Source of the DNA: Gammaproteobacteria bacterium | GTDB taxonomy: Bacteria; Pseudomonadota; Gammaproteobacteria; CAJXQU01 | Assembly: GCA_965223825.1 (NCBI GenBank) | Contig: OZ245018.1 | Location: 2,012,272-2,076,271, forward strand | DNA: 64,000 nt | Reading direction: 5' to 3' | Position numbers and translations under genes: made by a program | The notes under the pieces: model-generated | Told to the model about the DNA's origin: nothing | Seen by the model: the letters and a program-made list of their open reading frames with translations, nothing else | Database searches by the model: none | Shown: one piece after another, positions 42,264 to 64,000 of the stretch | Layout of the letters: each line of letters begins with the position of its first letter | Position numbering within the stretch: the stretch's first letter is position 1

Positions 42264-42291
42264 ATTCTTTTTTTAATTCTTAATTCTTAAT
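42264..42291. repeat. Heptanucleotide tandem repeat (TTAATTC)x4 in the promoter region of the hydrolase gene.
   Basis: I read it directly: ttaattc ttaattc ttaattc ttaattc. Confidence 0.6.
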
Positions 42292-42374
42292 TCTTAATTC
42301 TTTTAAATAATTTTTCTTAAAAATTTAAACAACACTATTATTAAATTTTAGTTGAACTGATCAAGTCGACAGAT

Positions 42375-42413
42375 AAAAAAATGCGGGTTAAAGATATAAA
42401 ATCAATAACCCGC
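42375..42413 (-). terminator. Rho-independent terminator (minus strand) between the 4-oxalocrotonate decarboxylase and hydrolase genes.
   Basis: On the minus strand it reads GCGGGTTA ttgattttatatctt TAACCCGC followed by ATTTTTTT. Confidence 0.55.
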
Positions 42414-42595
42414 CAATACTGGGACGTCAAATGGCTAGAGAGTTAAAGGAAGTCACAATCATCCTGATTGTCGTGCTGTCATCCTTGCGAAGATTAAATG
42501 AACTCTAGAATCACTTAATCCACATTCGTTACATTACATCCTTCACTTTTCTCAACTCTGCCCAGTCTACTGTTAACGACTTACTTCACTTCAAA

Positions 42596-44439: not shown

Positions 44440-44449
44440 GCTTAAGCCC

Positions 44450-45355: not shown

Positions 45356-45433
45356 TTTTCTATCCTCTTACCAACCTGGTCATTAATTTAGTCGTTTGGT
45401 TGGTCATTTTTTTAATTTGATCATTATTTTTAT

Positions 45434-46225
45434 TTATTCAAAACACAGCGAAGCGTTTCCCATCCCACCAACATGCACGGTCATATGATCACCCGGTTTA
45501 ATCGGAATGAGTGGGACAAGTGATCCAGATAAAATCACGTCACCAGCTTGCAGTGGAATCTCAAACTTGCCGAGTGTATTGGCTAACCATGCAACGCAAG
45601 TTAACGGTGAACCTAACGCCGCTGCTCCAGCACCGGTTGCAACGATCTCCCCATTTTTTTCTAACACCATACCGACCGTGGTTAAATCTAATTTCCGTGG
45701 GCTGATCGCTTGATGTCCGAGTGCAAAGTATCCGCACGAAGCATTGTCCGCGATGGTGTCTTGAATTTTGATTTTCCAGTCTCGGACACGTGAATCGACA
45801 ATTTCAAAACATGGCACAACAAAGTCCGTTGCGCGCAAGACGTCCGCAGCCGTCACACCGGGACCGGTTAAATCTTTTTTTAATACAAATGCGATTTCAC
45901 CTTCCGCACGTGGTTGAATCATCTTTTCACTGATCGGAATCGTTTGACCCGTTTCATAAACCATCTGATCGGTTAAATAACCAAAGTCCGGTTGATGCAC
46001 ACCCAGCATGTTTTGGACGGCTTTACTGGTCACACCGATTTTTTTACCGATGACTTTTTCGCCGGACTCTAATCGGTTATCAAGCAAGCGGGTGGAAATC
46101 GCATAAGCATCTTCAATGCTCATTTCAGGTTCACGATCAGTAATCGGTTCGATCACCTCACATGAACGTAATGCGGCAAAAAGATCATCACCGTATTGTT
46201 TAATTTTTTTCTTTTCCATGCTCAT
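45434..46225 (-). CDS. dmpE: 2-oxopent-4-enoate (2-hydroxypentadienoate) hydratase.
   Basis: The motif IGKKIGVTSKAVQNMLGVHQPDFGYL matches the MhpD/DmpE/XylJ hydratase branch. Its ATG at 46225 overlaps the HMS dehydrogenase stop (ATGA). Confidence 0.75.
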   Translation of the reverse strand: MSMEKKKIKQYGDDLFAALRSCEVIEPITDREPEMSIEDAYAISTRLLDNRLESGEKVIGKKIGVTSKAVQNMLGVHQPDFGYLTDQMVYETGQTIPISEKMIQPRAEGEIAFVLKKDLTGPGVTAADVLRATDFVVPCFEIVDSRVRDWKIKIQDTIADNASCGYFALGHQAISPRKLDLTTVGMVLEKNGEIVATGAGAAALGSPLTCVAWLANTLGKFEIPLQAGDVILSGSLVPLIPIKPGDHMTVHVGGMGNASLCFE

Positions 46226-47682: not shown

Positions 47683-47710
47683 AGGATGTTTATTCTCTAT
47701 TTATTGTTTT

Positions 47711-48130
47711 TTATGTAATTGCGTCTAAACCGGCTTGAGCGCATAACTCGTCTTGCTCTTCCGATGCACCTGAAACACCTATGGCGCCAACACAATCATC
47801 TCCTAACCTGATCGGAACACCTCCACCGAAGGCGACAAACCGATCACGCTGCACAATGCCTTCACGTAGTAACGATCCTTGTGGTAACACCTCACGCCAC
47901 TGACTTGTTGGAATGCTAAAACTGGCCGAGGTATAGGCTTTATCGATCGCGATATTGATGGACATGTACGGTGCATTTTCACTGCGTAAAAACGCCACCA
48001 ACTGCCCACTGCTATCCACAACAGCAACGGCTATGTGCACCCCTAATTCAGAGGCCTTCGCGATTGCTGCCTTGACAGAAACCTGTGCTGACTGCCAATG
48101 AATCAATTGTTTTTTATGTGTAATAACCAT
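47711..48130 (-). CDS. GlcG/HbpS-like (DUF336) protein, first gene of the lower-pathway operon.
   Basis: It is 139 aa. The region AVVDSSGQLVAF...GGGVPIRLGDDCVGAIGVSGASEEQDELCA fits DUF336. Confidence 0.6.
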   Translation of the reverse strand: MVITHKKQLIHWQSAQVSVKAAIAKASELGVHIAVAVVDSSGQLVAFLRSENAPYMSINIAIDKAYTSASFSIPTSQWREVLPQGSLLREGIVQRDRFVAFGGGVPIRLGDDCVGAIGVSGASEEQDELCAQAGLDAIT

Positions 48131-51419: not shown

Positions 51420-51436
51420 TTTTATATAAACCGTGT

Positions 51437-52384
51437 TTAATTTGATTCATTCAAATTGATCAAGCTCAACATACCCGCTCCTCCAACCAAGAATTTTTCT
51501 TGATTGACAGCCTCGGTCAGCTTGAAGAAAAAACGTGACTGAACGGGTAATTCCATTGGCGTCCATTCATCTGCATTGCCAATTTTTTTCTGTATAACTG
51601 TTCCATAGTCACCAACAGCGATGATGTAATCTCCCATCATCGTCATACCGAATAATGGTGCAGTAGTATTCGTTGTTTCTTTATTCCAGCTTTGTCCGCC
51701 ATCGTGTGTTTCATAGATAATGCCGCTTAATCCCGCAATCCAACCGACTGAACTATCTCGAAACGTACTGGTTAGGGGGGAGAAATCATTTGGTACAGGA
51801 TCAGCAAAATTCCACGTTTGGCCACGATCATTTGTGATCAGCACCGTACCGAATTCACCGGTAATAAATCCATTATCCTGATCAACAAATTCCACGGTGC
51901 TCAAAATGACATCTTCACCCAATGAACTGTCTTTCCAACTTTTTCCAACATCATCACTTGATAAGATGGTGCTGAAACTACCGACTACCCATAGTGTGTT
52001 GTGTTGATCACAATCAATTGCTTGCGGAACTTCTGGTGTCCCTAAAGGATGATTTACCCATTCAGATAAATTCTCTTTCGCTGTCCAAACGTCACCTTCC
52101 ATAGATAAAGCTGCAAACGTGCCATTTGGACAAAGCGTAATTTCGATTAAAGAAGGTTTGGCTGATATTTGATGACGCTGCCATTTATCAGTACCTTTTG
52201 CAGCATGTAAAATAATGCCTTCTGATCCAACAGCAACCGTTGTCGTATCAGAATCGATCGCGGACATGAAAATATCCGTTCGACGAACTGATTGTTTTTC
52301 AGTGACGTCAAGCCCATCCAATGTGAGTGGCGCTTCGCATCCCATCAGTATTAACGGTGCGAATAAAATAAATAAATTACGCAT
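51437..52384 (-). CDS. BNR/Asp-box repeat beta-propeller lipoprotein (Ycf48-like).
   Basis: It has a lipobox (LILMGC). Asp-box motifs SxDxGxSW (DVGKSWKD), GQTWN and GGQSWN are present. Confidence 0.7.
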   Translation of the reverse strand: MRNLFILFAPLILMGCEAPLTLDGLDVTEKQSVRRTDIFMSAIDSDTTTVAVGSEGIILHAAKGTDKWQRHQISAKPSLIEITLCPNGTFAALSMEGDVWTAKENLSEWVNHPLGTPEVPQAIDCDQHNTLWVVGSFSTILSSDDVGKSWKDSSLGEDVILSTVEFVDQDNGFITGEFGTVLITNDRGQTWNFADPVPNDFSPLTSTFRDSSVGWIAGLSGIIYETHDGGQSWNKETTNTTAPLFGMTMMGDYIIAVGDYGTVIQKKIGNADEWTPMELPVQSRFFFKLTEAVNQEKFLVGGAGMLSLINLNESN

Positions 52385-52513
52385 GTTTATTAACCGTTCA
52401 TCAACACCCTGTCGAAAAGCAACAGTTTAAAAAATACCTGTCGAGCAGTTATTGAATTATTTTAATTATGAAATAAAAAAGTGCCCTCATTATTGAGGGC
52501 ACTTGCTCGCAAA

Positions 52514-53818
52514 CTAACGACCACTACTGCGCATGTTTTGCACAGAAAATTTACTTTGTGGATTCAACTTAGGATCAACCTGTCCTTTAAATTGTCCCGT
52601 TGTGCAGTGACCTGCTTGTACGTCAACCATACTGAAGCTGTCATCAACAGAAACACCGGTGCCTTTATTAACTGGCAAGTGATGATCTGGATGTGCTTGG
52701 CCGATATACCATGATTTCCAGTATTTTCCTGCGCGGTCATAAATGATCGTACGTGGGAAAGTGAACGTCTGTGCATCGACATAATGAACACGTTTGCCAA
52801 TGGGGTGGTTACCATCAACCGGGACAGATTCAAGAACATACGCTTTACGTAATTGCCATGTCACATTTGCGAAACAGCCACCTTGTCCACCAAAATCAAC
52901 AAACTTGTATTCTGGATCGTTAAACTCATCTGTCAGAGGCATGTCGTTGTGATTATAAAAAGGCAGCAACACTGTTTTTGTCCCTTTATATGTCCACTTC
53001 ATATCTGAAATCCGACCGTTATAACCTTCAAAATCTTCGATCATTAAATCAGCACCAAGAAATGAATCCGTCGTTTGACCAGAAGCAAGACGACGAACAC
53101 GACGCTGGAAACCAAGATACAACCAGGCATCATCACGTTTTAAATCGTCTTCATAACGATGAATTAAAAGCTGGGTGTTTTTTACGTCGAACGGTTCTTC
53201 AACCATCGCGTAAATTGATCGGAAAATTTCAGATGGGTTTGGAGAAACTTCAGGTAATGGTTCGTAGTTAACGCGATGCTTCCAATTAAGAAAGTGGAAG
53301 TTGATTTTAATTTCACGCTCTACTTTACCGCTTTGCAGATCACGATAGCGCCAATAGAAAGGATAGATTGCAGCAGTATCCCCCCAGTTATAACCATATT
53401 TAAAATTCCATGCGAGTTTTTCACCTGCACGAGGATCACTCATATCCGGCTCTTCCGGAAAAGGACGCCCGGCTAGGAAACCAGAAATTTCACCTGGCTG
53501 GCTACCCAATGTGGTTTTATTTAAGTTTTCTTTTGTAGCATTTATGTAACCATCATGAAGGATGTAGTCCGTGGTTTCACCAACTTTAATTTCTAACCAA
53601 CCATCCTTTACGTGCTTATACATTTCAGGATCGAGTACATCTTTTGCAGCATCAACATTACCGGCATTGATGACCATTCCTGGTGTAACGCCATCTACTG
53701 TAGGAAATCCATTTTTATAAGGATAAAACGAATTTTCTATATCTTCTGGCGATGCAGCCTGTACTGTAGCGATCGGCAAAAAAGCTGCCAGCATGATCGC
53801 GATTCTCTTTAATTTCAT
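52514..53818 (-). CDS. DUF1329-family periplasmic protein (LolA-like fold family).
   Basis: It has a signal peptide (MKLKRIAIMLAAFLPIATVQA) and is 434 aa. A GAGGAG RBS is present. It is adjacent to the DUF1302-like gene. Confidence 0.7.
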   Translation of the reverse strand: MKLKRIAIMLAAFLPIATVQAASPEDIENSFYPYKNGFPTVDGVTPGMVINAGNVDAAKDVLDPEMYKHVKDGWLEIKVGETTDYILHDGYINATKENLNKTTLGSQPGEISGFLAGRPFPEEPDMSDPRAGEKLAWNFKYGYNWGDTAAIYPFYWRYRDLQSGKVEREIKINFHFLNWKHRVNYEPLPEVSPNPSEIFRSIYAMVEEPFDVKNTQLLIHRYEDDLKRDDAWLYLGFQRRVRRLASGQTTDSFLGADLMIEDFEGYNGRISDMKWTYKGTKTVLLPFYNHNDMPLTDEFNDPEYKFVDFGGQGGCFANVTWQLRKAYVLESVPVDGNHPIGKRVHYVDAQTFTFPRTIIYDRAGKYWKSWYIGQAHPDHHLPVNKGTGVSVDDSFSMVDVQAGHCTTGQFKGQVDPKLNPQSKFSVQNMRSSGR

Positions 53819-53945: not shown

Positions 53946-55942
53946 TTAAAAACGATAACGAACTAACAGTTGAACTTGATCTTCATTTTGCGCCATACCA
54001 ATTGGGCCAGAGCGGAATCGGCCTAATGGTTCAAAACCACTTAAACCAAGACTTTGGCTTGGTGCGCCTGTTCCAGTAAATGGAGGAAAAGGATCAGCAC
54101 TTCTTGCATCATCAAATGGTCGCGCACCTGTACCGAACTTAAAGTTCGCACCTAACGTGACACGCCAGTTGTCATTCACAAGCCAATCGATAGACGGTGC
54201 AACTGCTGCGGCTTGTGCACGAACATCGTACGCGGTGATGATTTGCGGGCTAAGTCGATCGTTCATGTACCAACCTTTTACCAATAACGTCGTGATAAAG
54301 TTATCTTTCCAGTCGGGATACCAATCTTACCTAACGGTCCGTCTTCCAGATCGTGCTCAAGAATATGTTGACCAAATACTTGTGCAGAAAATAAGAAAGC
54401 ACGCGTTTTGTTTAAGAAAGGAATGAAAGTTGGTCGATCTGCGCCGACAACCCAACGGATAACATCAGACTCTGAATACATTTCCGGTTTTGAGGTATTC
54501 GCAAACTCTTCACCAGTTGTCCATGCAGCTTCAACCCGAAAAGCTGTTTTCAAGCTATCCACATAAAAGTCCGCTGAACCACCGAGTAAACCGACACGTG
54601 GAAAATGAATGTCGAATGCGATCAGATAATCACGATTTAATTCAACACCGCCGGTACCGACTCCCGGAACGGTTACACCGGGTGCAATAAAAGGATTCAC
54701 TGCAGCCACATTACCCGCTCTCAGCGATGGAAGTTGTGAGCGGTAGTACAATCCGTTAAGTGAGAAACCCACGCCTTTATAAACACCCTCTAAGCGCATA
54801 CCGACTTCGGTTTCATCCAATTCCCAATCAGGCATCACTGCTTCACGAATACCGATACTGTGAGCTGGGAAATCCGTTTGTGCACCGCCACCGGCAAAGT
54901 TAGAAACAGAACAGCCATTTTCCCAACAATTATTCAGCGCGCGGAATAAGGAACCTGCATCGAGAATGGAGTTTGGTGTACCACCCTGGCCAAGGTTACT
55001 AGGACGAAATTTTTCGAACTTCCACAAGAACTGTAAGTTCAGATCATCAAATGTTTCTGTCGCACCCCAACGGTATTCCGCGGTTGCGATCCCCATTGGA
55101 ATACGAATATCTTCCAATTCGTCATAGATATTATTTCGTGAATAATCCACTGGGTTGATAACATCTAAAACACGGAATAAATCCGTACGGCCCCACACGA
55201 CCTGTTGGCGACCAAAGGTTAAATCTAATTGACGGCCGTTGGCTAATGGGATGGTGCCCGAGACATACGCTTCACGAATGACATCCGCTCGGCTATTAAA
55301 CTCCGGGTTTTGTAGATCGCTTTCTTCATAATCCAAATAGCCATCAATACAACCACGCGGATCAATATTGCACGGCCTCACTGGAACGCCGATTAACACA
55401 CCACCGTCATCTCCGTGTAATTGTGAGCCCAATTGAACCAAGCCTTCATTTGGATTCTAAGTGACATCAAAACCGAAGCCACCGCCTCCCGGTAAGCCTG
55501 GATTACCGGCAGTCACCAATGAGTTACCCCAAGGTGTGGTAATACCCGCAGGCACAGCCGATGGACCTAATACTCCGGCTGGAACACCGGCAGACGTATA
55601 TTCAACAGAGCCACCCGCATTTCTACCGTATTCATCATCGTTCAGATCATAAACCGCATCGTAGCTCGCACGAAGTGTGCCGTTGAATTGAAAGTTTTTG
55701 AAAATACCCACATCACCTAATGTTTTTGAAATTTCCAGGTTTAGGGTGTTGCGCATTTTAGATAACCCTTCTCCGTGTAAACGGACATGGGTGTCAGTCT
55801 CGAAATAACCGTGGATCTCCGCTTCTTCCGCATTCACTCCAGCACTTGCCGCTGTGAGTATTCCTGCAACCAGAAGCGATGTGGGCGTCATATTACTGGA
55901 AATATGAGCGTTCCCCTCCTGCATTCGCTTACGAACAGACAT
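53946..55942 (-). pseudogene. DUF1302-family outer-membrane protein gene, apparently disrupted. It is split into three ORFs by an in-frame TAG (55457-55459) and a +1 frameshift near 54280-54330.
   Basis: ORF 55457..55942 carries the signal peptide. ORF 54278..55441 is in the same frame as the first, with only a TAG and five sense codons (NPNEGL) between them. ORF 53946..54284 is in a different frame and ends ...LLVRYRF, a typical beta-barrel C-terminus. The three fragments total about 660 aa, which fits DUF1302. Confidence 0.55.
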
Positions 55943-56102: not shown

Positions 56103-56203
56103 TTATTTTTGCGTTGAACTTAATTATTTTTGATTTATTTCAATAGGTTGGATATAGGATCAGAGAATGGCTTTATATAAAACCATTCTCTGATCAACCA
56201 AGA

Positions 56204-57253
56204 TCAAGCGCGATGTTCTTGTTCTATCATCTGTTTCAAGCGTCGACGAACCCGTACATTGCCGACATCGCTGGATAACAAAACAGGATTCAGTGAAAAG
56301 AGATCGGTGATCTCAATCTCTTCTTGTTGCAGATCAATCACGGGTTTATCTTCATCAGCAAACGCGGCTTGCAAGCCTTCCTTATGCATAGCGTTATATT
56401 CCGCATCATGCTGCCTGTAGTTACGTGCTGATCCAAAAAAGTAGTGCGTTGTTTTCGCCGTTTCTGGTGTCATTAAATGGAAGTCATACAGTACAACCCC
56501 GTCGTTTTCATAATCCTGACTGCCTTGCACCGCTCCGACCTGTAAATGCATATTCGACGGTGCGCGCCATTTAACAGTCAGGTATTGATCAGCCGTACCT
56601 TCAGGTTCTTTTAAATGATTCCCCAACAGTGGCATTGCCGGATCCGCTTCCCACAACCAATTGATGTAGATGTCATCCCCATCATCTTTCACATCAGGAA
56701 TGATCGGGCTCAGCTTACCTTTGGTGTTGATCAGTGGACCGTGTAAGTGATCAATATGCGAAAGATCCATAATGTTATCGGTGATCAACTCGTAGTTCGC
56801 GTTGTTGTGCAGCACGAAATAAAACACTGCATCCTTCGGACTATTAGTCAAAATACTGCAATCCAGAATTTTATCTTCATCGGCCAGATCAGCATCGCCC
56901 ATCCAGATCCACAAAAAACCATCACGCTCAACTAATGGGAAGGATTGCACCACAGCTGCTTTAGGGATTTTGCCGTCACCATGCGGACTGTGTACGCACT
57001 TGCCAGTGCAATCAAACGTTAGGCCGTGATACTTACACGTAATGTCATCGCCATGACGTTGCCCAGCGGATAAAGGTAAAAACCGGTGTGGACAACGATC
57101 ACGTAAGGCAACCACCTCACCATTTTCTTTACGATAAATCAGAACGGATTGATCGAGAATTTTTCGTCTAAATAAATCCATTCCATTAATTTCTGTCACC
57201 AGTGCAGCCACATACCAGGCATTACTCAAAAAAATATTTTTATCTTCACTCAT
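56204..57253 (-). CDS. Rieske non-heme iron oxygenase, VanA/TsaM-type alpha subunit (O-demethylase/monooxygenase-like).
   Basis: The Rieske motif is CPHRFLPLS...CKYHG. A mononuclear iron region HNNANYELITDNIMDLSHIDHLH is present. It is 350 aa. The first ATG (MSEDK) has a GAGGAG RBS. Confidence 0.85.
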   Translation of the reverse strand: MSEDKNIFLSNAWYVAALVTEINGMDLFRRKILDQSVLIYRKENGEVVALRDRCPHRFLPLSAGQRHGDDITCKYHGLTFDCTGKCVHSPHGDGKIPKAAVVQSFPLVERDGFLWIWMGDADLADEDKILDCSILTNSPKDAVFYFVLHNNANYELITDNIMDLSHIDHLHGPLINTKGKLSPIIPDVKDDGDDIYINWLWEADPAMPLLGNHLKEPEGTADQYLTVKWRAPSNMHLQVGAVQGSQDYENDGVVLYDFHLMTPETAKTTHYFFGSARNYRQHDAEYNAMHKEGLQAAFADEDKPVIDLQQEEIEITDLFSLNPVLLSSDVGNVRVRRRLKQMIEQEHRA

Positions 57254-57558
57254 GCTGGTTCTCCTCACACGATTTATTTCAAGCCTCGACCTCTTTTGGG
57301 TCGATGAATAGGGAAAATAGTTTTAGAAAAATCCATCCGTCGCGTTAACAAAGCTCGACAAACACCGACGGGTAATTTTCCTGTATGAGGACTATACGAG
57401 GGCGCACTATGACGTTCACCAACCTTTAGGATGGTCGTCTTAATTGGTTGAAATACTGTGATATTTTAGAAATTCATCGTAAAGCATGAATGAAACGGAT
57501 GGCGATCAGGCAGCGTTCAAAACAAACACCGATCAGGCTGCTGTATAAATGGGTGGGA

Positions 57559-60375
57559 TTATTGCAAAAACCCAAGTTCACGCGCTTTAGAAACGGCACT
57601 GCCGCGACGGTGGACATCGAGCTTGGTAAAAATTTGTTGCCAGTACCACTTAACCGTATTTGGTGAAAGTGACAATCGCGTTGCTATTTCAGAATTAGAA
57701 CGATCATCCGCCGCCATCTCTAAAATTTCCACTTCGCGCTCTTTTAATAAAGCTTCCTGCAAACTAAAATCCATTGTTTGCGATCGTGGAAAATGTTGCA
57801 TTGGATCATTAGAAAAAGCAGTCAGCAACCGGGTGATCAGATCTGCAGAATCTGAAGCGTTTTCTGATTGCAGCTCACGCAAAAGCTTTTGTATCGGCTG
57901 TCCTTCATCAAGAAAAAAACGAACTGAATGTTCTGCACCTTTTAAATGCAAACACGTTTGCAGCACACCACGTGCTGCGGAGTGATCACCATTTTCCGCT
58001 GTGATCGCCGTCAAACAGAGTCCTGTTTGTAAAGCCGGTTCCCAACAACCGCGATCAGATAAAAACTGCCACCATTGTTTAAGCAAACGAATAGCCACCG
58101 CCGATTGTCCGCGCAACGTCGCTAATCTCGACCACGCAATCGCCATAACGCAGGTCGCTGTCGAGGCATTTTCATCGGGTTTGAGATTGATTGGCGGCCC
58201 CATTAAGCCACTCTGTCGGCCACATTCTGCAGCTTGTTGCGCATCACCCAATAAGCAATGAAGTCGGACCCGTTCCGCGATCAGATGTGTTTCTAAACGC
58301 GAAAAAGCAAAACGTGCTGCCTGTTTTATTCCTTCGTTTAAACATTCGAATGCAACATCCAAATTGCCATCAAAGACATGCACACGCGTCTTCGTTAAAT
58401 AGCCTGCAATCAACTGATCAGACAGCCCAAGTTTTTCACAGTGGCCTAAATGCTCGTTCACCAAATCACGCGCAAACTCAATTCGATTTTGCGTGTAGTA
58501 CAGATCTGCTAACAGCAAACCCGGTGTAGAAGAAATGGAGGAAAGTCGTCCATGCAATTCCGTGGCATCATTCAGCGCATTTTTAAATAATGCTTGCGCT
58601 TCGGTGTATTCCGCTTGCATTCGCAAAGTAATACCGACCAAGGCATCATGATAAACACTACCGTAAAGCACATTATGCTCAACACAAATTTCATGCATGG
58701 CTGCGGCCAAGCCCAGTGTCTCCCCCACTTCGAAATGATCGCGTCGTGCACTTTGTAATAAAATTTGTACAGAAGTCAGCATGTGCATCGCTGGATCAGA
58801 TGGGTAATTCGCAGACAGCCACGCTTCACACGCGATTTTAGTTTTCGCGAGATCGTCAGAAATCGCCGCTAACATCATTTCTCGGTGTTTCAATTTGCCT
58901 TCAAGATAGTGTAACTGCTTTGGTGCAAGACCTGACTCGACTAATAATATTTTTTTATCGGAAATAGTCGCGTGGAGCTCTCGATGTCTCGCCAGTTCTT
59001 CACTGATCAGATCGAGCATGGCGGCTCCCTTTTCGAAATCCCAGCGCATGATATGTTGCCACGCGAGATCTAACATTAAACGCGGCTGACGTTTCAAAAC
59101 ATCGTATGGAATACGGGCTGCTTGCTCTTCTAATGTGGTCACATGTCCGGTGGAAAACAACGTTTCACTGACATGATCTAAAAGCGCAGCAGCACGGGCT
59201 TTATCTTCAGCACAACAAGCATGATGGATCGCATCCAAATAAAAATGATGTTGTTCAAACCACAACGATGCGCGACTGTGAAAGACGCGGTATTTATCCG
59301 GATCGGCCTCACGCAAGCGCCTATCGAGAAACTCCGCAAACAGATGATGGTAGCGATACCAATCATCCGTCTCGTCTAAAGAAAAAATAAAAATATGGGA
59401 TGCAATCACCTGTTCAAGCAATGCATGACAATCTTTCATTTCCGTGACCGCCGCGCACAAACCGCGGTTTAACCGTGTCAGTATGGACGTTTGCAGTAAA
59501 AACTCGCGCACAGGTTCATCCAGCGTACGCAACACTTCTTCGGTTAAAAAATTTGCAATGTCACGATATTCACCGGAAAGATCGTGAATCCAATGTTGTG
59601 GGTTTTGTACTTTCTGCAAAGACAACGAGGCGAGTTGTAAACCTGCGACCCAACCTTCTGTACGATCAGCAAGTAACGCCAGATCAGGGTTTCGTAAAGG
59701 AATTTTAGTGGTCTTAGCAAAAAACTCGCGCGACTCGGCTAATGTAAAACGCAGATCATCGACATCCAGCTCATGCAAGCGTCCAAGGGCTCGCAATCGG
59801 CCTAACGACACGCCCAACGGCGCATGGCGCATGGCGACAATCCATTTCACACTGGCTGGACTACGCATGAACAATTCACTAACAGTGTCGAGTAGATCAG
59901 AATTCGTAATCAGATGAAAGTCATCAATAAAAATCCTCACCGGCTGATCTAGCTGGGCAATCTCATTAATAAATAAGGTCATCAACGTATCCGATGACGG
60001 ATTCGCACCACGCTCGATCAGGCCCAGAATATCGCGCCCGAAACCGGCAGAAGATTTGCGCACGGCTTCCACTAACGCATGCGCAAAGCGCACCATGTCG
60101 TTATCGGTTTTATCTAACGTAAACCAAGCGCAGATGCTTTGTTCTGATTGCGCTTGCGTAAATATTTGTGCGAGTAAGCTGGTTTTGCCATAACCGGCCG
60201 GCGCGGTAACCGTGAGAACAGAACAGCTTTCTGTCGCGCTAAACACACTTGCTAGACGTGGCCGTGCGATCAGCAGCCCGCGCTGCGACGGTGGCTTGAG
60301 TTTGGTCTCTAGTACAACAGATAAATAAGGCATCAGGTGCGTCGTGAAGTGTTTGTTTATTATTTTCTCAGACAC
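57559..60375 (-). CDS. MalT-type large LuxR-family regulator (STAND/AAA ATPase plus helical repeats plus C-terminal LuxR HTH).
   Basis: A Walker A motif (TAPAGYGKTSLL) is present. The C-terminal HTH reads REVEILEMAADDRSNSEIATRLSLSPNTVKWYWQQIFTKL. The track's start is GTG; an alternative ATG lies at 60333. Confidence 0.85.
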   Translation of the reverse strand: MSEKIINKHFTTHLMPYLSVVLETKLKPPSQRGLLIARPRLASVFSATESCSVLTVTAPAGYGKTSLLAQIFTQAQSEQSICAWFTLDKTDNDMVRFAHALVEAVRKSSAGFGRDILGLIERGANPSSDTLMTLFINEIAQLDQPVRIFIDDFHLITNSDLLDTVSELFMRSPASVKWIVAMRHAPLGVSLGRLRALGRLHELDVDDLRFTLAESREFFAKTTKIPLRNPDLALLADRTEGWVAGLQLASLSLQKVQNPQHWIHDLSGEYRDIANFLTEEVLRTLDEPVREFLLQTSILTRLNRGLCAAVTEMKDCHALLEQVIASHIFIFSLDETDDWYRYHHLFAEFLDRRLREADPDKYRVFHSRASLWFEQHHFYLDAIHHACCAEDKARAAALLDHVSETLFSTGHVTTLEEQAARIPYDVLKRQPRLMLDLAWQHIMRWDFEKGAAMLDLISEELARHRELHATISDKKILLVESGLAPKQLHYLEGKLKHREMMLAAISDDLAKTKIACEAWLSANYPSDPAMHMLTSVQILLQSARRDHFEVGETLGLAAAMHEICVEHNVLYGSVYHDALVGITLRMQAEYTEAQALFKNALNDATELHGRLSSISSTPGLLLADLYYTQNRIEFARDLVNEHLGHCEKLGLSDQLIAGYLTKTRVHVFDGNLDVAFECLNEGIKQAARFAFSRLETHLIAERVRLHCLLGDAQQAAECGRQSGLMGPPINLKPDENASTATCVMAIAWSRLATLRGQSAVAIRLLKQWWQFLSDRGCWEPALQTGLCLTAITAENGDHSAARGVLQTCLHLKGAEHSVRFFLDEGQPIQKLLRELQSENASDSADLITRLLTAFSNDPMQHFPRSQTMDFSLQEALLKEREVEILEMAADDRSNSEIATRLSLSPNTVKWYWQQIFTKLDVHRRGSAVSKARELGFLQ

Positions 60376-60464
60376 AAAGAACGCTCCCGCTGTTATCGAC
60401 TCATTTCATTGATTGCAATGCCACTACGACACGGAGTTGCACTTATTCACCTTCGACCAGAAAA

Positions 60465-61427
60465 TTACAGATCTAACACCAACACTGGCGACTTCGAACG
60501 TGAGCAACACGGCGTGAACTGGTCATTTAACGCTTTCTCTGCATCCGTTAAATACATATCACGGTGATCCGGCGTACCTTCCAAAACGCGCGTGAGACAC
60601 GTACCGCAAATTCCTTGCTCACAAGAAAGCGGAATATCAACACCCTGTGCTTCCAGCGCTTCAATAATTGTTTTATCCGGCGGGATTATGTAAGTCGCTC
60701 CGGTACTGGCGACTTTGATGGTAAATGCTTGATCACCCTCTTCACTGAGATCAATCGCACCGAACGATTCCGTATGGATCACATCATCTGTCCAACCAAA
60801 CTGATCGCGCGCGGTTGAGGTGACAAAATTCATAAAACCATCGGGCCCACAAACGTACAGATGTGTATCTGCTTCCGTCGATGCAAAAAGTGTCCCCAAC
60901 GCCAACTTTTGATCAGCCGCACCATCATCAAAATGAAAATGAATAAACGGCTTCAAACTACCGTCGATAAGTTCATTGTGAAAAGCCGCATGCAAACGAC
61001 TACGACAACAGTAATGCAATTCGAACGATTGAGAGTGATCAAATAAATGTTGTGCCATCGCCAGCATCGGCGTGATCCCAATCCCTCCGGCGATAAGGAT
61101 AGAATGTGCCGCTTCGCGTAATGGAAAATTATTCCGTGGTGCACTTATGGTGATCTGATCACCCTCATTGATTTTCGCGTGAACGGCTTTGGATCCTCCG
61201 CGCCCCGCATCTTCTAACTTGATCGCGAGGCGGTAATGATTCCGTTCTGAAGGTGAAGAACAAATAGAATATTGACGAACAAACCCATCAATATGCAAAT
61301 CAATATGTGAACCGGCTTCGAAGCTGGGTAAAACCTGACCCTCACCAGGCGAAAGTTCAAGACAAAGAATATCTTCCGCAGCGAGAAACTTGCGAGAAAC
61401 AGTAACGGTTAAGGTGTGATCATTCAT
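60465..61427 (-). CDS. VanB/PDR-family oxidoreductase (FMN-binding FNR-like domain plus C-terminal plant-type 2Fe-2S).
   Basis: An FNR-like N-terminus (RQYSICSSP) is present. The C-terminal ferredoxin reads LSCEQGICGTCLTRVLEG. It is 320 aa. Confidence 0.85.
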   Translation of the reverse strand: MNDHTLTVTVSRKFLAAEDILCLELSPGEGQVLPSFEAGSHIDLHIDGFVRQYSICSSPSERNHYRLAIKLEDAGRGGSKAVHAKINEGDQITISAPRNNFPLREAAHSILIAGGIGITPMLAMAQHLFDHSQSFELHYCCRSRLHAAFHNELIDGSLKPFIHFHFDDGAADQKLALGTLFASTEADTHLYVCGPDGFMNFVTSTARDQFGWTDDVIHTESFGAIDLSEEGDQAFTIKVASTGATYIIPPDKTIIEALEAQGVDIPLSCEQGICGTCLTRVLEGTPDHRDMYLTDAEKALNDQFTPCCSRSKSPVLVLDL

Positions 61428-61548: not shown

Positions 61549-61572
61549 GACACCATCCTTTCGGATGGTGTC
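61549..61572. terminator. Hairpin GACACCATCC tttc GGATGGTGTC followed by TTTATCTTT, downstream of the C23O gene.
   Basis: It has a perfect 10-bp stem. T-rich sequence on the + side and ATTCTTTT on the minus side mean it could act bidirectionally. Confidence 0.55.
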
Positions 61573-61587: not shown

Positions 61588-62508
61588 TCAAGTTGTAACA
61601 GAAAGGAAACGTTCATTGAGTTTCTGATCATGATAGAAAATCGCGCCACCGAGCTCTTCAGCCGTCCAAGTGATCGGTTCATGATCGGGATACCAACTAT
61701 AGTCACCACAAAATACTTCGTTACGGTTACCGGAAGGATCAAAAAAGTATATGGTTCTACCGCGCGTAATACCATGACGGGTTGGGCCAATATCAATGGG
61801 TATACGATAGCGCCCCATTAAATCCGCCGCGTGAAGCACTTCTTCCCAACTGTTCAGTAAAAAAGACACATGGTGCAAACGACCTTTTTCTTCATTTCTT
61901 ACGAACGCAATATCATGCGCCTTCATACCGCAACTCATGAATGAACTGATCTTAAAATCACCATCCATAACGCGTTCGGTTTCTTGAAAACCCAAGACCT
62001 CTGTGAAAAGTTTCACCACGCCATCCAGATCATCTCCGTATAGCAAACAATGATCAAACCGTTGTGCTTTCATGCCTTTTAAATTGTCTGGAAATGGGTG
62101 CGGGTTTAAGCGTCCCATTTCTGTACCTTTTATGTCTTTTTCAGCAAATAATTCAAATGCATGACCGGTTGGGGCAATAAAGCGAACGCGCTCGCCACAA
62201 TGCTTTAATTCACCGGCAGGAATCTGTTCCACATCAAGACCAAAGTCGATCAGATCTTGGGTTAATTTGCGCAATGTCTCCGCACTATCAACCTTGAATG
62301 CCATGAAATCCATGCCTGGAGAATCTGCTTCACGTAGCACGATTGAGAAATAATCTTGCTCATCCCAACCTTTGAGATAAACACGACCTTGATCATCGCG
62401 ATCAACCTCCTCCAGTCCGAGTCGTTCGCAGTAATGCACCAAACCTTCTTCAAGATCCAATAAGCGCACGCTGACATGACCCGGGCGTAACACACCTTGT
62501 AATGGCAT
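61588..62508 (-). CDS. dmpB: Catechol 2,3-dioxygenase (extradiol, type I).
   Basis: The N-terminus [68 protein letters not shown] is very close to the XylE/DmpB pattern. A GGAGGAGG RBS is present. It is 306 aa. Confidence 0.92.
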
Positions 62509-62681
62509 AAAGTACCTCCTCCATGCTTCGATTTATCGAATTATTATGGTTACCGATCCGAAAGCGACGATTGCCGACCTCACTCGGAATTTTTATATTT
62601 TTCTAATTTAAGCGAATGATTTTTCAATATTTTTAAGAAATACCAGTCACATTAAACGGTCATTGTTATTTTTCTGATTAT

Positions 62682-62711
62682 ATCGATATTTTTATAAATG
62701 TCGATATTTTA
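62682..62711. promoter_or_regulatory. Copy C of the shared motif, ATATCGATATTTTTATAAATGTCGATATTTTAT, between the ferredoxin and C23O genes.
   Basis: I read it directly. It lies about 175 bp upstream of the C23O start and about 28 bp after the ferredoxin stop. Confidence 0.5.
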
Positions 62712-62738
62712 TATTTTCATCTACCTTAATTTGTACCA

Positions 62739-63050
62739 TTAGATTTTCTTGTTTAAACACTTTTTCAACTTGCCGTTCACTTCCAGCGTGAGATCACTCT
62801 CAGGATGACAACGACAAGCCAGTACGTAACCTTCAGCTTGCTCAGCCTCAGTAATGTGCTCACGACTCATTTTTCGAGCGTGATAATTCCCATTGAGAAC
62901 GCGCACTTTGCACACACCACAGCCGCCTCCACGACAGCCGGACATGATGCCTTTCTTACCGACCCGCTCCATGCTGGAAAGCAGGTTTTGATCATCCGAG
63001 CAGGCATACTCAACCTGAATATCCTGTAAATAGATCGCATACTTTTTCAT
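62739..63050 (-). CDS. dmpQ: Plant-type [2Fe-2S] ferredoxin of the XylT/DmpQ type (C23O-reactivating ferredoxin).
   Basis: It is 103 aa. The motif CRGGGCGVCKVRV...LACRC is present. It sits between the phenol hydroxylase reductase and C23O, as in dmp/xyl operons. Confidence 0.8.
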   Translation of the reverse strand: MKKYAIYLQDIQVEYACSDDQNLLSSMERVGKKGIMSGCRGGGCGVCKVRVLNGNYHARKMSREHITEAEQAEGYVLACRCHPESDLTLEVNGKLKKCLNKKI

Positions 63051-63055
63051 GGCGA

Positions 63056-64000
63056 TTAAATACTTTTAAATAAAGGACTTTTCGATTGCTCATTTTTATT
63101 TTCATTGGTGAAAAAGTTTTCAACATAAATATCTTTTTCAAATAAACGGCCCTTCATCAACGTATTAATGCACGCATCTACCATCGGCGGCGGACCGCAG
63201 ATATACGCTTTATGACCATCAAACCTTCCACCAAAATGCTCCATCGCCGCTTCATGTACATATCCTCTTAGACCTTGCCAATCAGAGTCGTGTGGTTCAT
63301 CAGACACTGCGGGTACAAAGGTAAAGTTCGAATATTGCTTCGTCAGCGAAACGAACAAATCGTGATAGTAGAGTTCATCTTGATTACGCGCACCGTATAT
63401 AAGGGTGGTAGGACGTTTGTCATTTTTTTCTAGTAGATCGAGCACCATCGATTTAGGGCTGGATAAACCTGATCCACCGGCAAGAAAGATGAATGGTTGC
63501 GGTGCAGACTTGCGAATGAAGAAACGACCATACGGTCCGGAAAAGCGCAGCTCATCACCGACCTTTAATTCATTGTGCACATACGTTGTTCCCTTGCCGT
63601 TTTCGACAAGGCACACATTCAATTCAATTAAATTGGATTCGGACGGGGGATTCGCGATCGAAAATGCACGAGGATGATCATCAATTCCGGGAATATGTAA
63701 ATTAATATATTGCCCCGCTTGAAAGTCCATACCGCCATTTTCAATCGCCAAAAAGATCGCCTTAATACGTGGTGTAAAGGATTCAATTTTAGAAACCACA
63801 CCAACAAAATCGCGGACCGCATGCGACTCAGCATCCGGTTCCTCATCGATATCTGCTTCGATAACGAGATCCGATTCCGGAGTCGCGCAACAGGCCAGGC
63901 ATTTTCCTTCATCACGCTCCATATCCATTAAAGCAAACGGTGATGGACTACCGTGATCAATCTCACCTTCGACCACATCGACTTTACACGTCGCACATAA
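63056..64000 (-). CDS. dmpP: Phenol/toluene multicomponent monooxygenase reductase component (2Fe-2S plus FAD/NAD), N-terminus beyond the window.
   Basis: The frame stays open to nt 64000 and reads ...LCATCKVD VEGEIDHG..., matching the DmpP ferredoxin domain. The FNR-like motif RAFSIAN is present. The upstream hydroxylase genes presumably lie beyond the window. Confidence 0.85.
   Translation of the reverse strand, partial: LCATCKVDVVEGEIDHGSPSPFALMDMERDEGKCLACCATPESDLVIEADIDEEPDAESHAVRDFVGVVSKIESFTPRIKAIFLAIENGGMDFQAGQYINLHIPGIDDHPRAFSIANPPSESNLIELNVCLVENGKGTTYVHNELKVGDELRFSGPYGRFFIRKSAPQPFIFLAGGSGLSSPKSMVLDLLEKNDKRPTTLIYGARNQDELYYHDLFVSLTKQYSNFTFVPAVSDEPHDSDWQGLRGYVHEAAMEHFGGRFDGHKAYICGPPPMVDACINTLMKGRLFEKDIYVENFFTNENKNEQSKSPLFKSI

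What the first reader, a model, noticed from the sequence alone, without database searches (positions are those of the whole stretch)
56204..61427. VanA-type Rieske oxygenase and VanB-type reductase separated by a 938-aa MalT-like regulator, next to catechol cleavage and RuMP genes
All three genes lie on the minus strand in the order reductase, MalT-type regulator, oxygenase. The oxygenase has VanA/TsaM-like Rieske and mononuclear iron motifs. Such enzymes typically O-demethylate or hydroxylate substituted aromatics and release formaldehyde when demethylating. A catechol meta-pathway and a complete formaldehyde-fixing hps/phi pair (33193-34374) lie in the same island. One coherent hypothesis is demethylation of a methoxyphenol (guaiacol-like) to a catechol, which is cleaved by C23O, with the formaldehyde detoxified by RuMP. 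The substrate is unknown.
Basis: inference. Interest (0 to 1): 0.55.

Follow-up and report, generated by a model that had tools for sequence, protein, structure and literature searches.

The report
Guaiacol-demethylase-like oxygenase split by a regulator
An uncultured marine-type gammaproteobacterium carries a two-part iron oxygenase whose closest studied relatives strip the methyl group from guaiacol to give catechol; it sits inside a catechol-degradation cluster with an unusual regulator gene between its two halves, so it is a divergent example of a known enzyme system and not a new kind of system.

Summary
Three intact minus-strand genes encode a phthalate-dioxygenase-reductase-type reductase (60465-61427), a MalT-family STAND/LuxR regulator (57559-60375, probable start 60333) and a VanA-type Rieske oxygenase (56204-57268, probable start 57253, 349 aa).

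The best solved-structure match is GdmA, the Rieske guaiacol O-demethylase (7QWT, E 3.7e-112, 50.6% identity). C. necator GdmA is 49.6% identical, DdmC 34% and plasmid genes annotated vanA at most 37.5%. However, the window enzyme lies outside the clade bounded by the two characterised GdmAs in 200/200 NJ bootstraps, although in the same larger family. Two of three reported substrate-recognition residues differ conservatively. Guaiacol-type O-demethylation is therefore likely but unproven.

The order reductase, MalT, oxygenase, DUF1302, DUF1329, BNR recurs in relatives at 99% and 80% identity. Most other relatives have the reductase directly upstream of the oxygenase.

The link to hps/phi is not supported by position or shared regulatory elements. 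They are bona fide RuMP genes of Methylophagaceae type, 22 kb away beyond ppsA/ppsR. They give capacity, not demonstrated coupling.

Verdict: new member of a known kind, modest interest.

The parts
60465..61427 (-). Class IA (phthalate dioxygenase reductase / VanB / GdmB type) NAD(P)H:flavin:[2Fe-2S] reductase, 320 aa. Presumed electron donor of the oxygenase.
   Evidence: Pfam domain order FAD_binding_6, NAD_binding_1, Fer2. Full-length match to 2PIA, E 3.5e-66. 48.9% identical to the reductase directly upstream of C. necator gdmA. 43-56% identical to reductases adjacent to homologous oxygenases.
57559..60375 (-). MalT-family STAND NTPase / TPR / LuxR-HTH transcription regulator (938-aa ORF; probable start ATG 60333, 924 aa).
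   Evidence: Pfam AAA_22, AAA_16, TPR_MalT and GerE. NCBIfam MalT 322 bits, below the 537 cutoff. 8BOB (E. coli MalT) E 1.3e-51 over residues 22-436. Same position in L001/L002 (100%) and L091 (69%); adjacent in L095 (43%) and nearby in L003/L004 (54%).
56204..57268 (-). VanA-type Rieske non-haem iron monooxygenase, GdmA-like (354-aa ORF; probable start ATG 57253, 349 aa).
   Evidence: Pfam Rieske and VanA_C. 7QWT GdmA E 3.7e-112. 50.6% identical to SwGdmA, 49.6% to CnGdmA, 34% to DdmC. Metal ligands invariant.
57269..57558 (-). 290-nt intergenic region upstream of the oxygenase. Presumed separate promoter and regulator target.
   Evidence: Sequence read. It has no copy of the AATATCGAYAT operator. 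It has two TTTCTAAAA copies at 57321-57329 and 57464-57472.
56158..56195 (-). 17-bp-stem hairpin 8 nt after the oxygenase stop codon. Probable terminator or mRNA end.
   Evidence: Inverted repeat I1. RNA fold -26.4 kcal/mol, z = -7.1, 0/200 shuffles as stable.
61549..61572 (-). Terminator-like hairpin between catechol 2,3-dioxygenase and the reductase.
   Evidence: Terminator scan. Fold -23.2 kcal/mol, z = -6.6.
61588..62508 (-). Catechol 2,3-dioxygenase. Presumed consumer of the oxygenase product.
   Evidence: TIGR03211, 423.5 bits against a cutoff of 320.
62739..63976 (-). Plant-type ferredoxin and the reductase subunit of a multicomponent phenol hydroxylase. The operon continues beyond the window end.
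   Evidence: Pfam and NCBIfam matches. L001 shows the complete dmpKLMNOP-like set upstream.
53946..55942 (-). DUF1302 outer-membrane protein (AmeA-like). Disrupted in this genome.
   Evidence: Pfam DUF1302. CAG to TAG at 55457-55459 and a 1-bp deletion near 54318, relative to the intact 665-aa gene in L001.
49059..53818 (-). DUF1329 (LolA-like periplasmic), BNR/Ycf48-like, and HAE3-family RND transporter. Together with DUF1302 these form an AmeABCD-like envelope transport module.
   Evidence: Pfam and NCBIfam. Same four families in the same order as AmeABCD of Castellaniella defragrans (PMC6394551).
48317..49000 (+). GntR/FCD regulator, divergent from the lower meta-pathway operon. Candidate binder of the shared operator.
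   Evidence: Pfam GntR and FCD. The binding role is inferred from position only.
41378..48130 (-). Lower catechol meta-pathway: HbpS-like protein, 2-hydroxymuconic semialdehyde dehydrogenase, hydratase, acetaldehyde dehydrogenase, aldolase, 4-oxalocrotonate decarboxylase, hydrolase.
   Evidence: Pfam. TIGR03216, TIGR03220 and TIGR03218 above their cutoffs.
62674..62717 (-). Shared promoter/operator element, copy upstream of C23O. Other copies are at 56065-56108 (upstream of DUF1302) and 48203-48246 (upstream of the lower meta operon).
   Evidence: Direct-repeat family D1. TCGACA-16-TATAAT promoters. AATATCGAYAT has 15 matches against 3.96 expected, and all exact matches lie at these three sites.
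33193..34374 (-). hps and phi (RuMP formaldehyde fixation). Context only; not shown to belong to the system.
   Evidence: TIGR03128, 240 bits against a cutoff of 200; TIGR03127, 198 against 160. Nearest named HPS relatives are Methylophaga/Methylophagaceae at 72-77%.

Best explanation
This is a two-component Rieske monooxygenase of the GdmAB (guaiacol O-demethylase) family, embedded in a phenol/catechol meta-cleavage supercluster of an uncultured gammaproteobacterium.

Electron path and chemistry. Domain content and metal ligands are shown; the chemistry follows from the family.
- The 320-aa PDR-type reductase passes electrons from NAD(P)H through its flavin and C-terminal [2Fe-2S] cluster to the Rieske cluster of the homotrimeric 349-aa oxygenase.
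- The mononuclear iron, held by H171, H176 and D307, activates O2.

Reaction and fate of products (inferred).
- The iron site hydroxylates the methyl carbon of an ortho-methoxyphenol, either guaiacol or a substituted guaiacol.
- The hemiacetal collapses to a catechol plus formaldehyde.
- The catechol is cleaved by the catechol 2,3-dioxygenase encoded one gene upstream and degraded by the lower meta-pathway 8 kb downstream.
- The formaldehyde can be removed by the genome's RuMP enzymes.

Regulation (inferred).
- The MalT-family STAND regulator between the two enzyme genes is a conserved partner in this subclade.
- It most likely acts as the effector-dependent activator of the separately transcribed oxygenase gene.
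- The oxygenase has its own 290-nt upstream region and a strong hairpin after the stop codon.

Transport module.
- The AmeABCD-like envelope transport module downstream is co-conserved.
- It shares an operator with the catechol-pathway operons, not with the oxygenase.
For: Enzyme class.

Nearest characterised relatives:
- GdmA 7QWT, E 3.7e-112; its identity as R. wittichii GdmA comes from PMC12445004.
- C. necator N-1 pBB1 homologue at 49.6%. It follows a phenol hydroxylase, a FadL-like gene and its own reductase, and precedes frmA/fghA formaldehyde-detoxification genes.
- This matches the published CnGdmAB description, with the reductase upstream of the oxygenase.

Family placement:
- There is a clear identity gap: about 50% to GdmAs against at most 40% to all other plasmid homologues, and 34% to DdmC.
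- The clade containing the window, Cn and Sw enzymes excludes the 38-44% and roughly 29% paralogue groups in 200/200 bootstraps.
- 12 of 18 compared pocket-aligned positions, the three Fe ligands among them, are the same in the window enzyme and in both characterised GdmAs.

Context in 78 GTDB loci:
- Reductase directly upstream in 41.
- Meta-pathway genes in 25.
- C23O in 16.
- DUF1302/DUF1329 in 12.

Conserved architecture:
- Reductase, MalT, oxygenase, DUF1302, DUF1329, BNR recurs in L001/L002 (99%) and L091 (80%).
- MalT is adjacent in L095 (61%) and nearby in L003/L004 (76-77%).

Other support:
- Transcription-unit boundaries.
- Precedent for hps/phi induction by aromatic O-demethylation: B. 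cepacia TM1 on vanillate (PMC8879981).
Against: - The window enzyme lies outside the clade bounded by the two characterised GdmAs in 200/200 NJ bootstraps. Those two are 71.8% identical to each other but only about 50% to the window enzyme.
- Of three residues reported as substrate-recognition residues in SwGdmA (I165, I207, F223), the window has I, L and L. Homologues with a non-aromatic residue at F223 were reported to be poor guaiacol demethylases.
- Six further pocket-aligned positions differ: Q228, L230, H295, G298, L299 and A304. The list of DdmC pocket positions used there was recalled from memory.
- VanA-type enzymes can switch between O-demethylation and methyl-group oxidation at much higher identity. 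PmmA1 is 69% identical to VanA (PMC13599478).
- SwGdmA itself is a weak guaiacol demethylase in vivo.
- No formaldehyde-detoxification gene is adjacent. hps/phi show no positional or motif link.
- The regulator's target and effector are untested.
Confidence: 0.55

Rival explanations
1. Same enzyme family and electron path, but a different physiological substrate or chemistry. Examples are O-demethylation of bulkier or doubly methoxylated phenols (4-alkylguaiacols, 3-methoxycatechol, syringol), or hydroxylation of an ortho-methyl or alkyl group of an alkylphenol. The product would still be funnelled to extradiol cleavage.
For: - The window subclade is sister to, not inside, the characterised GdmA clade.
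- The F223-equivalent is Leu and the I207-equivalent is Leu.
- Several pocket-aligned positions carry smaller residues: F to L, A to G, E to A.
- The subclade is tightly associated with an AmeABCD-like module, which in Castellaniella handles apolar monoterpenes.
- L095 places the homologue next to an extradiol dioxygenase and a meta-cleavage-product hydrolase, a pairing typical of substituted catechols.
- VanA-like PmmA1 oxidises a methyl group while retaining demethylase activity.
Against: - No characterised enzyme with such a specificity is closer than GdmA.
- Most pocket-aligned residues are shared with GdmA.
- The phenol hydroxylase upstream already converts cresols to methylcatechols, so methyl oxidation is not needed for that route (inference).
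Confidence: 0.3
2. A vanillate (or other methoxybenzoate) O-demethylase of the VanAB type, yielding protocatechuate.
For: Pfam names the C-terminal domain VanA_C. Some databases label homologues 'vanillate O-demethylase monooxygenase subunit'.
Against: - Only 35-37.5% identity to plasmid genes annotated vanA, against about 50% to GdmA.
- No protocatechuate dioxygenase, vanK or vanR in the window.
- Homologues co-localise with catechol meta-pathway genes.
Confidence: 0.03
3. One reading: oxygenase, catechol meta-pathway and hps/phi form one co-acquired, co-regulated island for growth on methoxyphenols, with the methoxy carbon assimilated through RuMP.
For: - All the genes lie within 30 kb on one strand.
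- hps and phi are bona fide.
- Hps/Phi activity rises on vanillate in B. cepacia TM1.
- Aerobic methoxydotrophy exists in Methylobacterium (PMC8963497).
- The C. necator gdmBA genes are followed by frmA/fghA, which shows selection for a linked formaldehyde sink in one case.
Against: - ppsR, ppsA, an aminotransferase, an SDR and transaldolase separate hps/phi from the meta genes.
- There is no shared operator or motif.
- The closest HPS homologues (82%) are about as far from the window's HPS as the closest PpsA homologues (85-89%) are from its PpsA, and its nearest named relatives are Methylophagaceae. This suggests a vertically inherited core RuMP.
- 0 of 78 related loci have hps/phi within 10 kb.
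- The same hps neighbourhood is found in other contigs.
Confidence: 0.12

Closest known systems
GdmAB, Rieske guaiacol O-demethylase (N. aromaticivorans F199, C. necator N-1, R. wittichii RW1; Bleem et al. 2022, doi 10.1016/j.checat.2022.04.019; structure 7QWT)
   Same: - VanA-type alpha3 oxygenase with a PDR-type reductase.
- Best PDB match, E 3.7e-112, at 50% identity.
- Same larger clade in 200/200 bootstraps.
- Identical metal ligands and most pocket-aligned residues.
- Located in phenol/catechol catabolic clusters, as the C. necator genes are.
   Different: - Lies outside the clade of characterised members.
- 50% identity, against 72% between the characterised members.
- I207L and F223L substitutions.
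- The reductase and oxygenase genes are separated by a 2.8-kb regulator gene, not adjacent.
- The downstream route here is meta-cleavage, whereas N. aromaticivorans uses catA ortho-cleavage (PMC11837543).
- No adjacent frmA/fghA.
VanAB vanillate O-demethylase
   Same: Same Pfam architecture (Rieske + VanA_C) and the same class IA reductase type.
   Different: At most 37.5% identity to genes annotated vanA. No protocatechuate pathway or van regulon genes nearby.
DdmC dicamba O-demethylase (3GKE)
   Same: Second-best structural relative (E 2.3e-58). The Fe ligands align.
   Different: 34% identity. The carboxylate-binding positions N230 and W285 (recalled from memory) are L and G here. DdmC uses a separate ferredoxin and reductase (established knowledge).
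MalT (E. coli) and the large ATP-binding LuxR-type activators such as AlkS
   Same: STAND NTPase, winged helix, TPR-like sensor and LuxR HTH. 8BOB E 1.3e-51.
   Different: Below the NCBIfam MalT equivalog cutoff (322 against 537 bits). The effector and target promoters are unknown. The gene is embedded in an aromatic catabolic cluster. The comparison with AlkS rests on my own knowledge and was not tested.
AmeABCD apolar monoterpene efflux system of Castellaniella defragrans (PMC6394551)
   Same: Same four families in the same order: DUF1302, DUF1329, COG4447/BNR, RND.
   Different: The sequence relationship to AmeABCD itself was not measured. The DUF1302 gene here carries a stop codon and a frameshift. 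The substrate is unknown.
Phenol hydroxylase cluster of Zoogloea oleivorans BucT (PMC7012976, Fig. 3)
   Same: The published map shows oxidoreductase, ring-hydroxylating dioxygenase alpha subunit, DUF1302, DUF1329, ferredoxin, C23O and dmpKLMNOP, which is the same set of components. Locus L034 (Z. oleivorans MAG) shows the homologous pair at 50% identity.
   Different: No MalT-type gene lies between the reductase and oxygenase there. That cluster has a sigma-54 regulator.

Membership tests
GdmAB (Rieske guaiacol O-demethylase) | VanA-type oxygenase: Rieske domain plus VanA_C catalytic domain, with no beta subunit | tested here: met
   Pfam PF00355 E 5e-21 and PF19112 E 3.7e-47. No small-subunit gene is nearby.
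GdmAB (Rieske guaiacol O-demethylase) | Intact CxH...CxxH Rieske ligands and a 2-His-1-carboxylate iron site | tested here: met
   C59, H61, C78, H81, H171, H176 and D307 are invariant in 29 homologues and align to DdmC H160/H165/D294.
GdmAB (Rieske guaiacol O-demethylase) | Cognate PDR/VanB-type reductase encoded at the same locus (natively directly upstream) | tested here: met
   The reductase at 60465-61427 matches 2PIA at E 3.5e-66 and is 48.9% identical to the C. necator neighbour. It is at the same locus but separated from the oxygenase by the regulator gene. 41 of 78 related loci have it directly upstream.
GdmAB (Rieske guaiacol O-demethylase) | Phylogenetic position within the clade bounded by experimentally characterised GdmAs | tested here: not met
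   The window lies outside the MRCA of CnGdmA and SwGdmA in 200/200 NJ bootstraps. It is inside the next larger clade, which excludes the other paralogue groups in 200/200. NaGdmA was not available, and only an NJ tree could be built.
GdmAB (Rieske guaiacol O-demethylase) | Substrate-recognition residues reported for SwGdmA (I165, I207, F223) | tested here: inconclusive
   The window has I172, L214 and L230. The substitutions are conservative, but non-aromatic residues at F223 were reported in poorly active homologues.
GdmAB (Rieske guaiacol O-demethylase) | Converts guaiacol to catechol plus formaldehyde | not testable with these tools
   Needs an enzyme assay.
VanAB vanillate O-demethylase | Close similarity to characterised VanA, and linkage to protocatechuate catabolism or the van regulon | tested here: not met
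   At most 37.5% identity to genes annotated vanA on plasmids. No pca, lig or vanK/R genes in the window. Characterised VanA sequences themselves were not available.
TsaMB / PobAB / LigXa clades | Phylogenetic clustering with these characterised enzymes | not tested
   No reference sequences could be retrieved with the tools. None appears among the PDB matches.
MalT-family STAND (LuxR-type) regulators | N-terminal STAND NTPase with Walker A and B motifs, MalT-type TPR sensor, C-terminal LuxR/GerE HTH | tested here: met
   Pfam AAA_22, AAA_16, TPR_MalT and GerE. GYGKTS and FIDDFH motifs are visible in the translation. 8BOB E 1.3e-51.
MalT (maltose regulon activator, equivalog) | Score above the NCBIfam PRK04841 cutoff | tested here: not met
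   322 bits against a cutoff of 537. It is a family member, not an orthologue.
AmeABCD-like envelope transport module | Four genes in the order DUF1302, DUF1329, BNR/COG4447, RND | tested here: met
   against the description in PMC6394551. The DUF1302 member is a pseudogene here.
RuMP formaldehyde fixation (hps/phi) | HxlA and HxlB above curated cutoffs | tested here: met
   TIGR03128, 240 bits against 200; TIGR03127, 198 against 160.
RuMP formaldehyde fixation (hps/phi) | Functional or regulatory linkage to the demethylase | tested here: not met
   No shared operator or motif. Housekeeping genes intervene. 0 of 78 related loci have hps/phi within 10 kb. Expression coupling is untestable here.

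The most novel reading that the evidence does not exclude
The window subclade (window, L001/2, L091, L003/4, L095) may be a functionally distinct branch of the GdmA family. It would be dedicated to a hydrophobic methoxylated or alkylated phenol that the characterised GdmAs do not handle.

In this reading it would be controlled by a dedicated MalT-type sensor and served by an AmeABCD-like envelope transporter. In this RuMP-bearing lineage, which has Methylophagaceae-like hps/phi, the released formaldehyde would be assimilated. That would be an aerobic, RuMP-based methoxydotrophy combined with meta-cleavage in an uncultured gammaproteobacterium.
Probability: 0.12. Interest if true: 0.55.

Novelty: new member of a known kind. 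Interest (0 to 1): 0.3.

Why it matters
Rieske guaiacol O-demethylases were described only in 2022, from three soil bacteria (a betaproteobacterium and two alphaproteobacteria). They are sought as alternatives to P450 GcoAB for lignin valorisation.

- This locus and its relatives show that a divergent branch of the family is built into phenol/catechol meta-cleavage clusters of uncultured Gammaproteobacteria.
- That branch has a conserved MalT-type regulator and an AmeABCD-like transport module.
- If the substrate is confirmed, the locus offers a new sequence-diverse demethylase and a candidate methoxyphenol-responsive regulator, which could serve as a biosensor part.
- It would also hint that methoxyphenols are substrates for these organisms.

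Nothing here challenges current understanding.

Tried and rejected
1. Organism identification.
   - The GTDB genome scan gave at best a 77% oxygenase match, in an unnamed Gammaproteobacteria MAG.
   - Exact look-ups show only that the window comes from a 3.33-Mb NCBI/ENA contig.
   - The reductase look-up found nothing.
   - PpsA homologues at 75-89% are all unnamed MAGs; named genera are at most 68%.
   - The organism stays 'uncultured gammaproteobacterium'.
2. The primary GdmA paper (doi 10.1016/j.checat.2022.04.019) and the DdmC structure paper (PMC3109874) are not held. GdmA facts come from secondary citations. The DdmC pocket list is from memory and is only a lead.
3. I looked for formaldehyde-detoxification genes (frmA/fghA) beside homologues as a signature of demethylation. 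They occur only at the C. necator pBB1 locus, with frmA alone in one Acinetobacter locus. They are not a general signature.
4. hps/phi beside homologues: none.
5. I assumed P0100 (M. petroleiphilum, 51%) was the tested MpGdmA. I rejected this because P0100 has Phe at the F223 position, whereas the tested enzyme is reported to have Ile.
6. TTTCTAAAA as a candidate MalT-like box. It is enriched (6 against 0.96 expected) and sits upstream of the reductase, oxygenase and DUF1302 genes. It is absent from L003/L004, and only one of the two oxygenase copies is exact in L001. Left as a weak lead.
7. The Rfam scan of the whole window found nothing.
8. The first bootstrap attempt with Biopython timed out and was replaced by a numpy implementation.
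9. Structure prediction and fold search were not run.


Full report
**Observation**

The ORF scan finds three minus-strand ORFs exactly as described: 61427-60465 (320 aa), 60375-57559 (938 aa) and 57268-56204 (354 aa).

- The 354-aa protein has a Rieske domain (E 5e-21) and a VanA_C catalytic domain (E 3.7e-47). Its Rieske ligands (C59, H61, C78, H81) and iron ligands (H171, H176, D307) are invariant in an alignment of 29 homologues. They align with H160/H165/D294 of DdmC.
- The 320-aa protein has the order flavin domain, NAD domain, C-terminal plant-type [2Fe-2S]. It matches phthalate dioxygenase reductase 2PIA over its full length (E 3.5e-66). It is therefore a class IA (VanB/GdmB-type) reductase.
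- The 938-aa protein has a STAND NTPase, a MalT-type TPR region and a LuxR/GerE HTH. It scores 322 bits on the NCBIfam MalT model, below the 537 cutoff. Residues 22-436 match the E. coli MalT structure 8BOB at E 1.3e-51.
- The mechanical ORF starts are probably too long. The oxygenase most likely starts at the ATG at 57253, behind GAGGAG, giving 349 aa as in the 99%-identical database protein. The regulator most likely starts at the ATG at 60333, giving 924 aa as called in L001.

**Surroundings**

Reading the minus strand from high to low coordinates:
- the end of a multicomponent phenol hydroxylase operon (reductase subunit and ferredoxin);
- catechol 2,3-dioxygenase (TIGR03211, above cutoff);
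- reductase, MalT-like regulator, oxygenase;
- DUF1302, DUF1329, BNR/Ycf48-like protein and an HAE3 RND transporter;
- a divergent GntR/FCD regulator;
- the lower meta-pathway (HbpS-like protein, HMSD, hydratase, acetaldehyde dehydrogenase, aldolase, decarboxylase, hydrolase);
- ppsR, ppsA, a class V aminotransferase, an SDR, transaldolase, hps, phi, a GntR regulator and prpBC.

The DUF1302, DUF1329, BNR, RND set has the same composition and order as AmeABCD, the apolar monoterpene efflux system of Castellaniella defragrans (PMC6394551).

**What the oxygenase is closest to**

- Against all PDB sequences the best match by a wide margin is 7QWT (E 3.7e-112). DdmC is second at 2.3e-58.
- 7QWT is GdmA of Rhizorhabdus wittichii RW1 (PMC12445004). 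It belongs to the Rieske guaiacol O-demethylases described by Bleem et al. 2022 in N. aromaticivorans, C. necator N-1 and S. wittichii.
- In the plasmid collection the window protein hits C. necator N-1 pBB1 at 49.6% identity.
- At that locus the homologue is preceded by a phenol hydroxylase, a FadL-like gene and a PDR-type reductase. It is followed by S-(hydroxymethyl)glutathione dehydrogenase and S-formylglutathione hydrolase. That arrangement fits a formaldehyde-releasing demethylase. It also fits the published statement that gdmB natively precedes gdmA.
- Plasmid hits fall into two bands: 48-50% (five records) and at most 40% (all others). Genes annotated vanA reach at most 37.5%.

**How far the inference carries**

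- Pairwise identities are: window to SwGdmA 50.6%, window to CnGdmA 49.6%, SwGdmA to CnGdmA 71.8%, window to DdmC 34%.
- In NJ trees of oxygenases taken from 90 loci, the window groups with L001/L002 (99%) and L003/L004 (76-77%), and weakly with L012. This group branches at the base of the large clade that holds both characterised GdmAs.
- Over 200 bootstrap replicates the window was always outside the MRCA of CnGdmA and SwGdmA. The clade containing all three always excluded the 38-44% and roughly 29% paralogue groups.
- A preprint names SwGdmA I165, I207 and F223 as substrate-recognition residues. It notes that homologues with Thr or Ile at F223 were poor guaiacol demethylases. The window has I172, L214 and L230 at these positions.
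- I also compared 18 pocket positions besides D307, taken from my memory of the DdmC structure. Of these, 12 are shared with both GdmAs and 6 differ: Q228, L230, H295, G298, L299 and A304.
- VanA-type enzymes can change chemistry at higher identity than this. PmmA1 is 69% identical to VanA, yet it oxidises an aromatic methyl group while retaining demethylase activity (PMC13599478).

I therefore assign the enzyme to the GdmAB family in the broad sense. I regard ortho-methoxyphenol O-demethylation as the most likely reaction (about 0.55). A related but different phenolic substrate or chemistry is the main rival (about 0.3).

**Synteny**

Among 78 GTDB species loci with a homologue of at least 42% identity:
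- the reductase lies directly upstream on the same strand in 41, directly downstream in 3 and elsewhere in the locus in 2;
- 25 loci carry meta-pathway genes, 16 a C23O and 12 DUF1302/DUF1329;
- 5 carry a MalT-like gene, and none carries hps/phi.

The arrangement reductase, MalT, oxygenase, DUF1302, DUF1329, BNR is not a one-off. It recurs in L001/L002 (99%) and in L091. In L091 the oxygenase is 80% identical, the regulator 69% and the reductase 56%. L095 (61%) has C23O-like, DUF1329, oxygenase, MalT, DUF1302. L003/L004 have the regulator (54%) a few genes away. The MalT-type regulator and the Ame-like components are thus conserved partners of this subclade.

A published map of the Zoogloea oleivorans BucT phenol hydroxylase cluster shows an uncharacterised 'oxidoreductase' and 'ring-hydroxylating dioxygenase alpha subunit', followed by DUF1302 and DUF1329 (PMC7012976). 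I read these as a counterpart of the window's reductase-oxygenase pair.

**Transcription units (inferred)**

- A terminator-like hairpin follows C23O (61549-61572; -23.2 kcal/mol, z = -6.6).
- A 17-bp hairpin follows the oxygenase stop codon (56158-56195; -26.4 kcal/mol, z = -7.1).
- The oxygenase has a 290-nt upstream region of its own.
- A 44-nt element holds two AATATCGAYAT boxes 18 nt apart, overlapping a TCGACA-16-TATAAT promoter. It occurs upstream of C23O (62674-62717), DUF1302 (56065-56108) and the lower meta operon (48203-48246), and nowhere else in the window.
- That element is absent upstream of the oxygenase, the reductase and hps.

The Ame-like module and the catechol pathway therefore probably form one regulon. 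The divergent GntR/FCD protein is a candidate regulator of it. The oxygenase is controlled separately, most plausibly by the MalT-like protein.

**hps/phi**

Both genes pass the curated NCBIfam cutoffs, so the RuMP pair is real. However:
- it is separated from the meta-pathway genes by ppsR, ppsA and other genes;
- it lacks the shared operator;
- the same neighbourhood occurs in several other contigs;
- its closest named relatives are Methylophaga/Methylophagaceae at 72-77%, and its best unnamed relatives reach 82%, close to the 85-89% seen for PpsA.

This looks like a core, vertically inherited RuMP, not part of a catabolic island.

Hps/Phi activity rises in B. cepacia TM1 on vanillate (PMC8879981). 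Methylobacterium shows aerobic methoxydotrophy (PMC8963497). The data here show capacity, not linkage.

**Organism**

The window comes from a 3.33-Mb contig present in NCBI and ENA. PpsA and the oxygenase have only unnamed Gammaproteobacteria MAGs as close relatives. G+C is about 45%.

**Verdict**

The enzyme class and the guaiacol-like substrate idea fit the closest characterised family. The RuMP link is speculative.
- This is a new, divergent member of the known GdmAB family, with a conserved but previously undescribed gene arrangement: an embedded MalT-type regulator and an adjacent AmeABCD-like module.
- Interest is modest. The locus is useful for enzyme discovery and as a possible source of a methoxyphenol-responsive regulator. 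It is not surprising to a specialist.

Noticed in passing
window 53946-55942 (-): The DUF1302 (AmeA-like) outer-membrane gene is broken by two lesions. One is a CAG to TAG nonsense change at 55457-55459. The other is a 1-bp deletion in a C-run near 54318. The gene is intact (665-666 aa) in the 98.5%-identical L001/L002 and in L091.
   Followed up: yes
window 48203-48246, 56065-56108, 62674-62717: A 44-nt promoter/operator element has two AATATCGAYAT boxes 18 nt apart, overlapping a TCGACA-16-TATAAT promoter. It precedes the lower meta-pathway operon, the DUF1302 operon and C23O. All exact matches in the 64-kb window lie at these three sites (15 matches at up to 1 mismatch, against 3.96 expected). 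The divergent GntR/FCD gene at 48317-49000 is a candidate regulator.
   Followed up: partly
window 61451-61459, 57464-57472, 57321-57329, 56015-56023 (all minus strand): TTTCTAAAA occurs 6 times in the window against 0.96 expected. Four copies sit upstream of the reductase, the oxygenase (two copies) and DUF1302. The motif is not found in L003/L004, so it is only a weak candidate for a MalT-like box.
   Followed up: partly
L003 3004-3987, L004, L016 1261-2319, L029 5225-6277, L056 2373-3410, L061 3820-4902, L091 112-1197: Every relative that has a MalT-like neighbour also carries a second, distant VanA-type oxygenase paralogue (27-35% identity to the window enzyme). This holds for 5 of 5 GTDB loci with a MalT-like gene. 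The window itself lacks this paralogue. Its function is unknown.
   Followed up: partly
L090 (C. necator N-1 pBB1, NC_015727.1 1274755-1295801): The unannotated record encodes phenol hydroxylase subunits, a FadL-like channel, the gdmB-like reductase, the gdmA-like oxygenase, then S-(hydroxymethyl)glutathione dehydrogenase and S-formylglutathione hydrolase. A formaldehyde sink is thus placed directly after a guaiacol demethylase.
   Followed up: partly
L001 15837-21050 versus window 49059-51419: Identity between the window and L001 drops from 99-100% (C23O to DUF1329) to 92-94% in the BNR and RND genes. Downstream of the RND gene L001 has a second DUF1302/DUF1329 pair where the window has the GntR gene and the lower meta-pathway. 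This suggests a recombination boundary.
   Followed up: no
window 29418-29885 (+); L085-L087, L089: An HNH-endonuclease ORF lies between prpC and a CMD-family gene. At the same place several closely related contigs carry a 498-aa reverse-transcriptase (RVT_1) ORF, possibly a group II intron. Rfam found no intron RNA in the window.
   Followed up: partly
window 9436-16101 (+): A 2221-aa protein combines three lamin-tail domains, bacterial Ig/cadherin-like domains, CHB_HEX_C/Fn3-associated domains and a CotH kinase domain. It is probably a giant surface protein and is unrelated to the finding.
   Followed up: no
L093/L094 (P0005, 75% identical oxygenase): This close homologue stands alone, with no reductase, MalT or Ame genes nearby. 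Its neighbours are a luciferase-like monooxygenase, a P450 and thiolase/ChsH2-like genes. The subclade is therefore not confined to catechol clusters.
   Followed up: no
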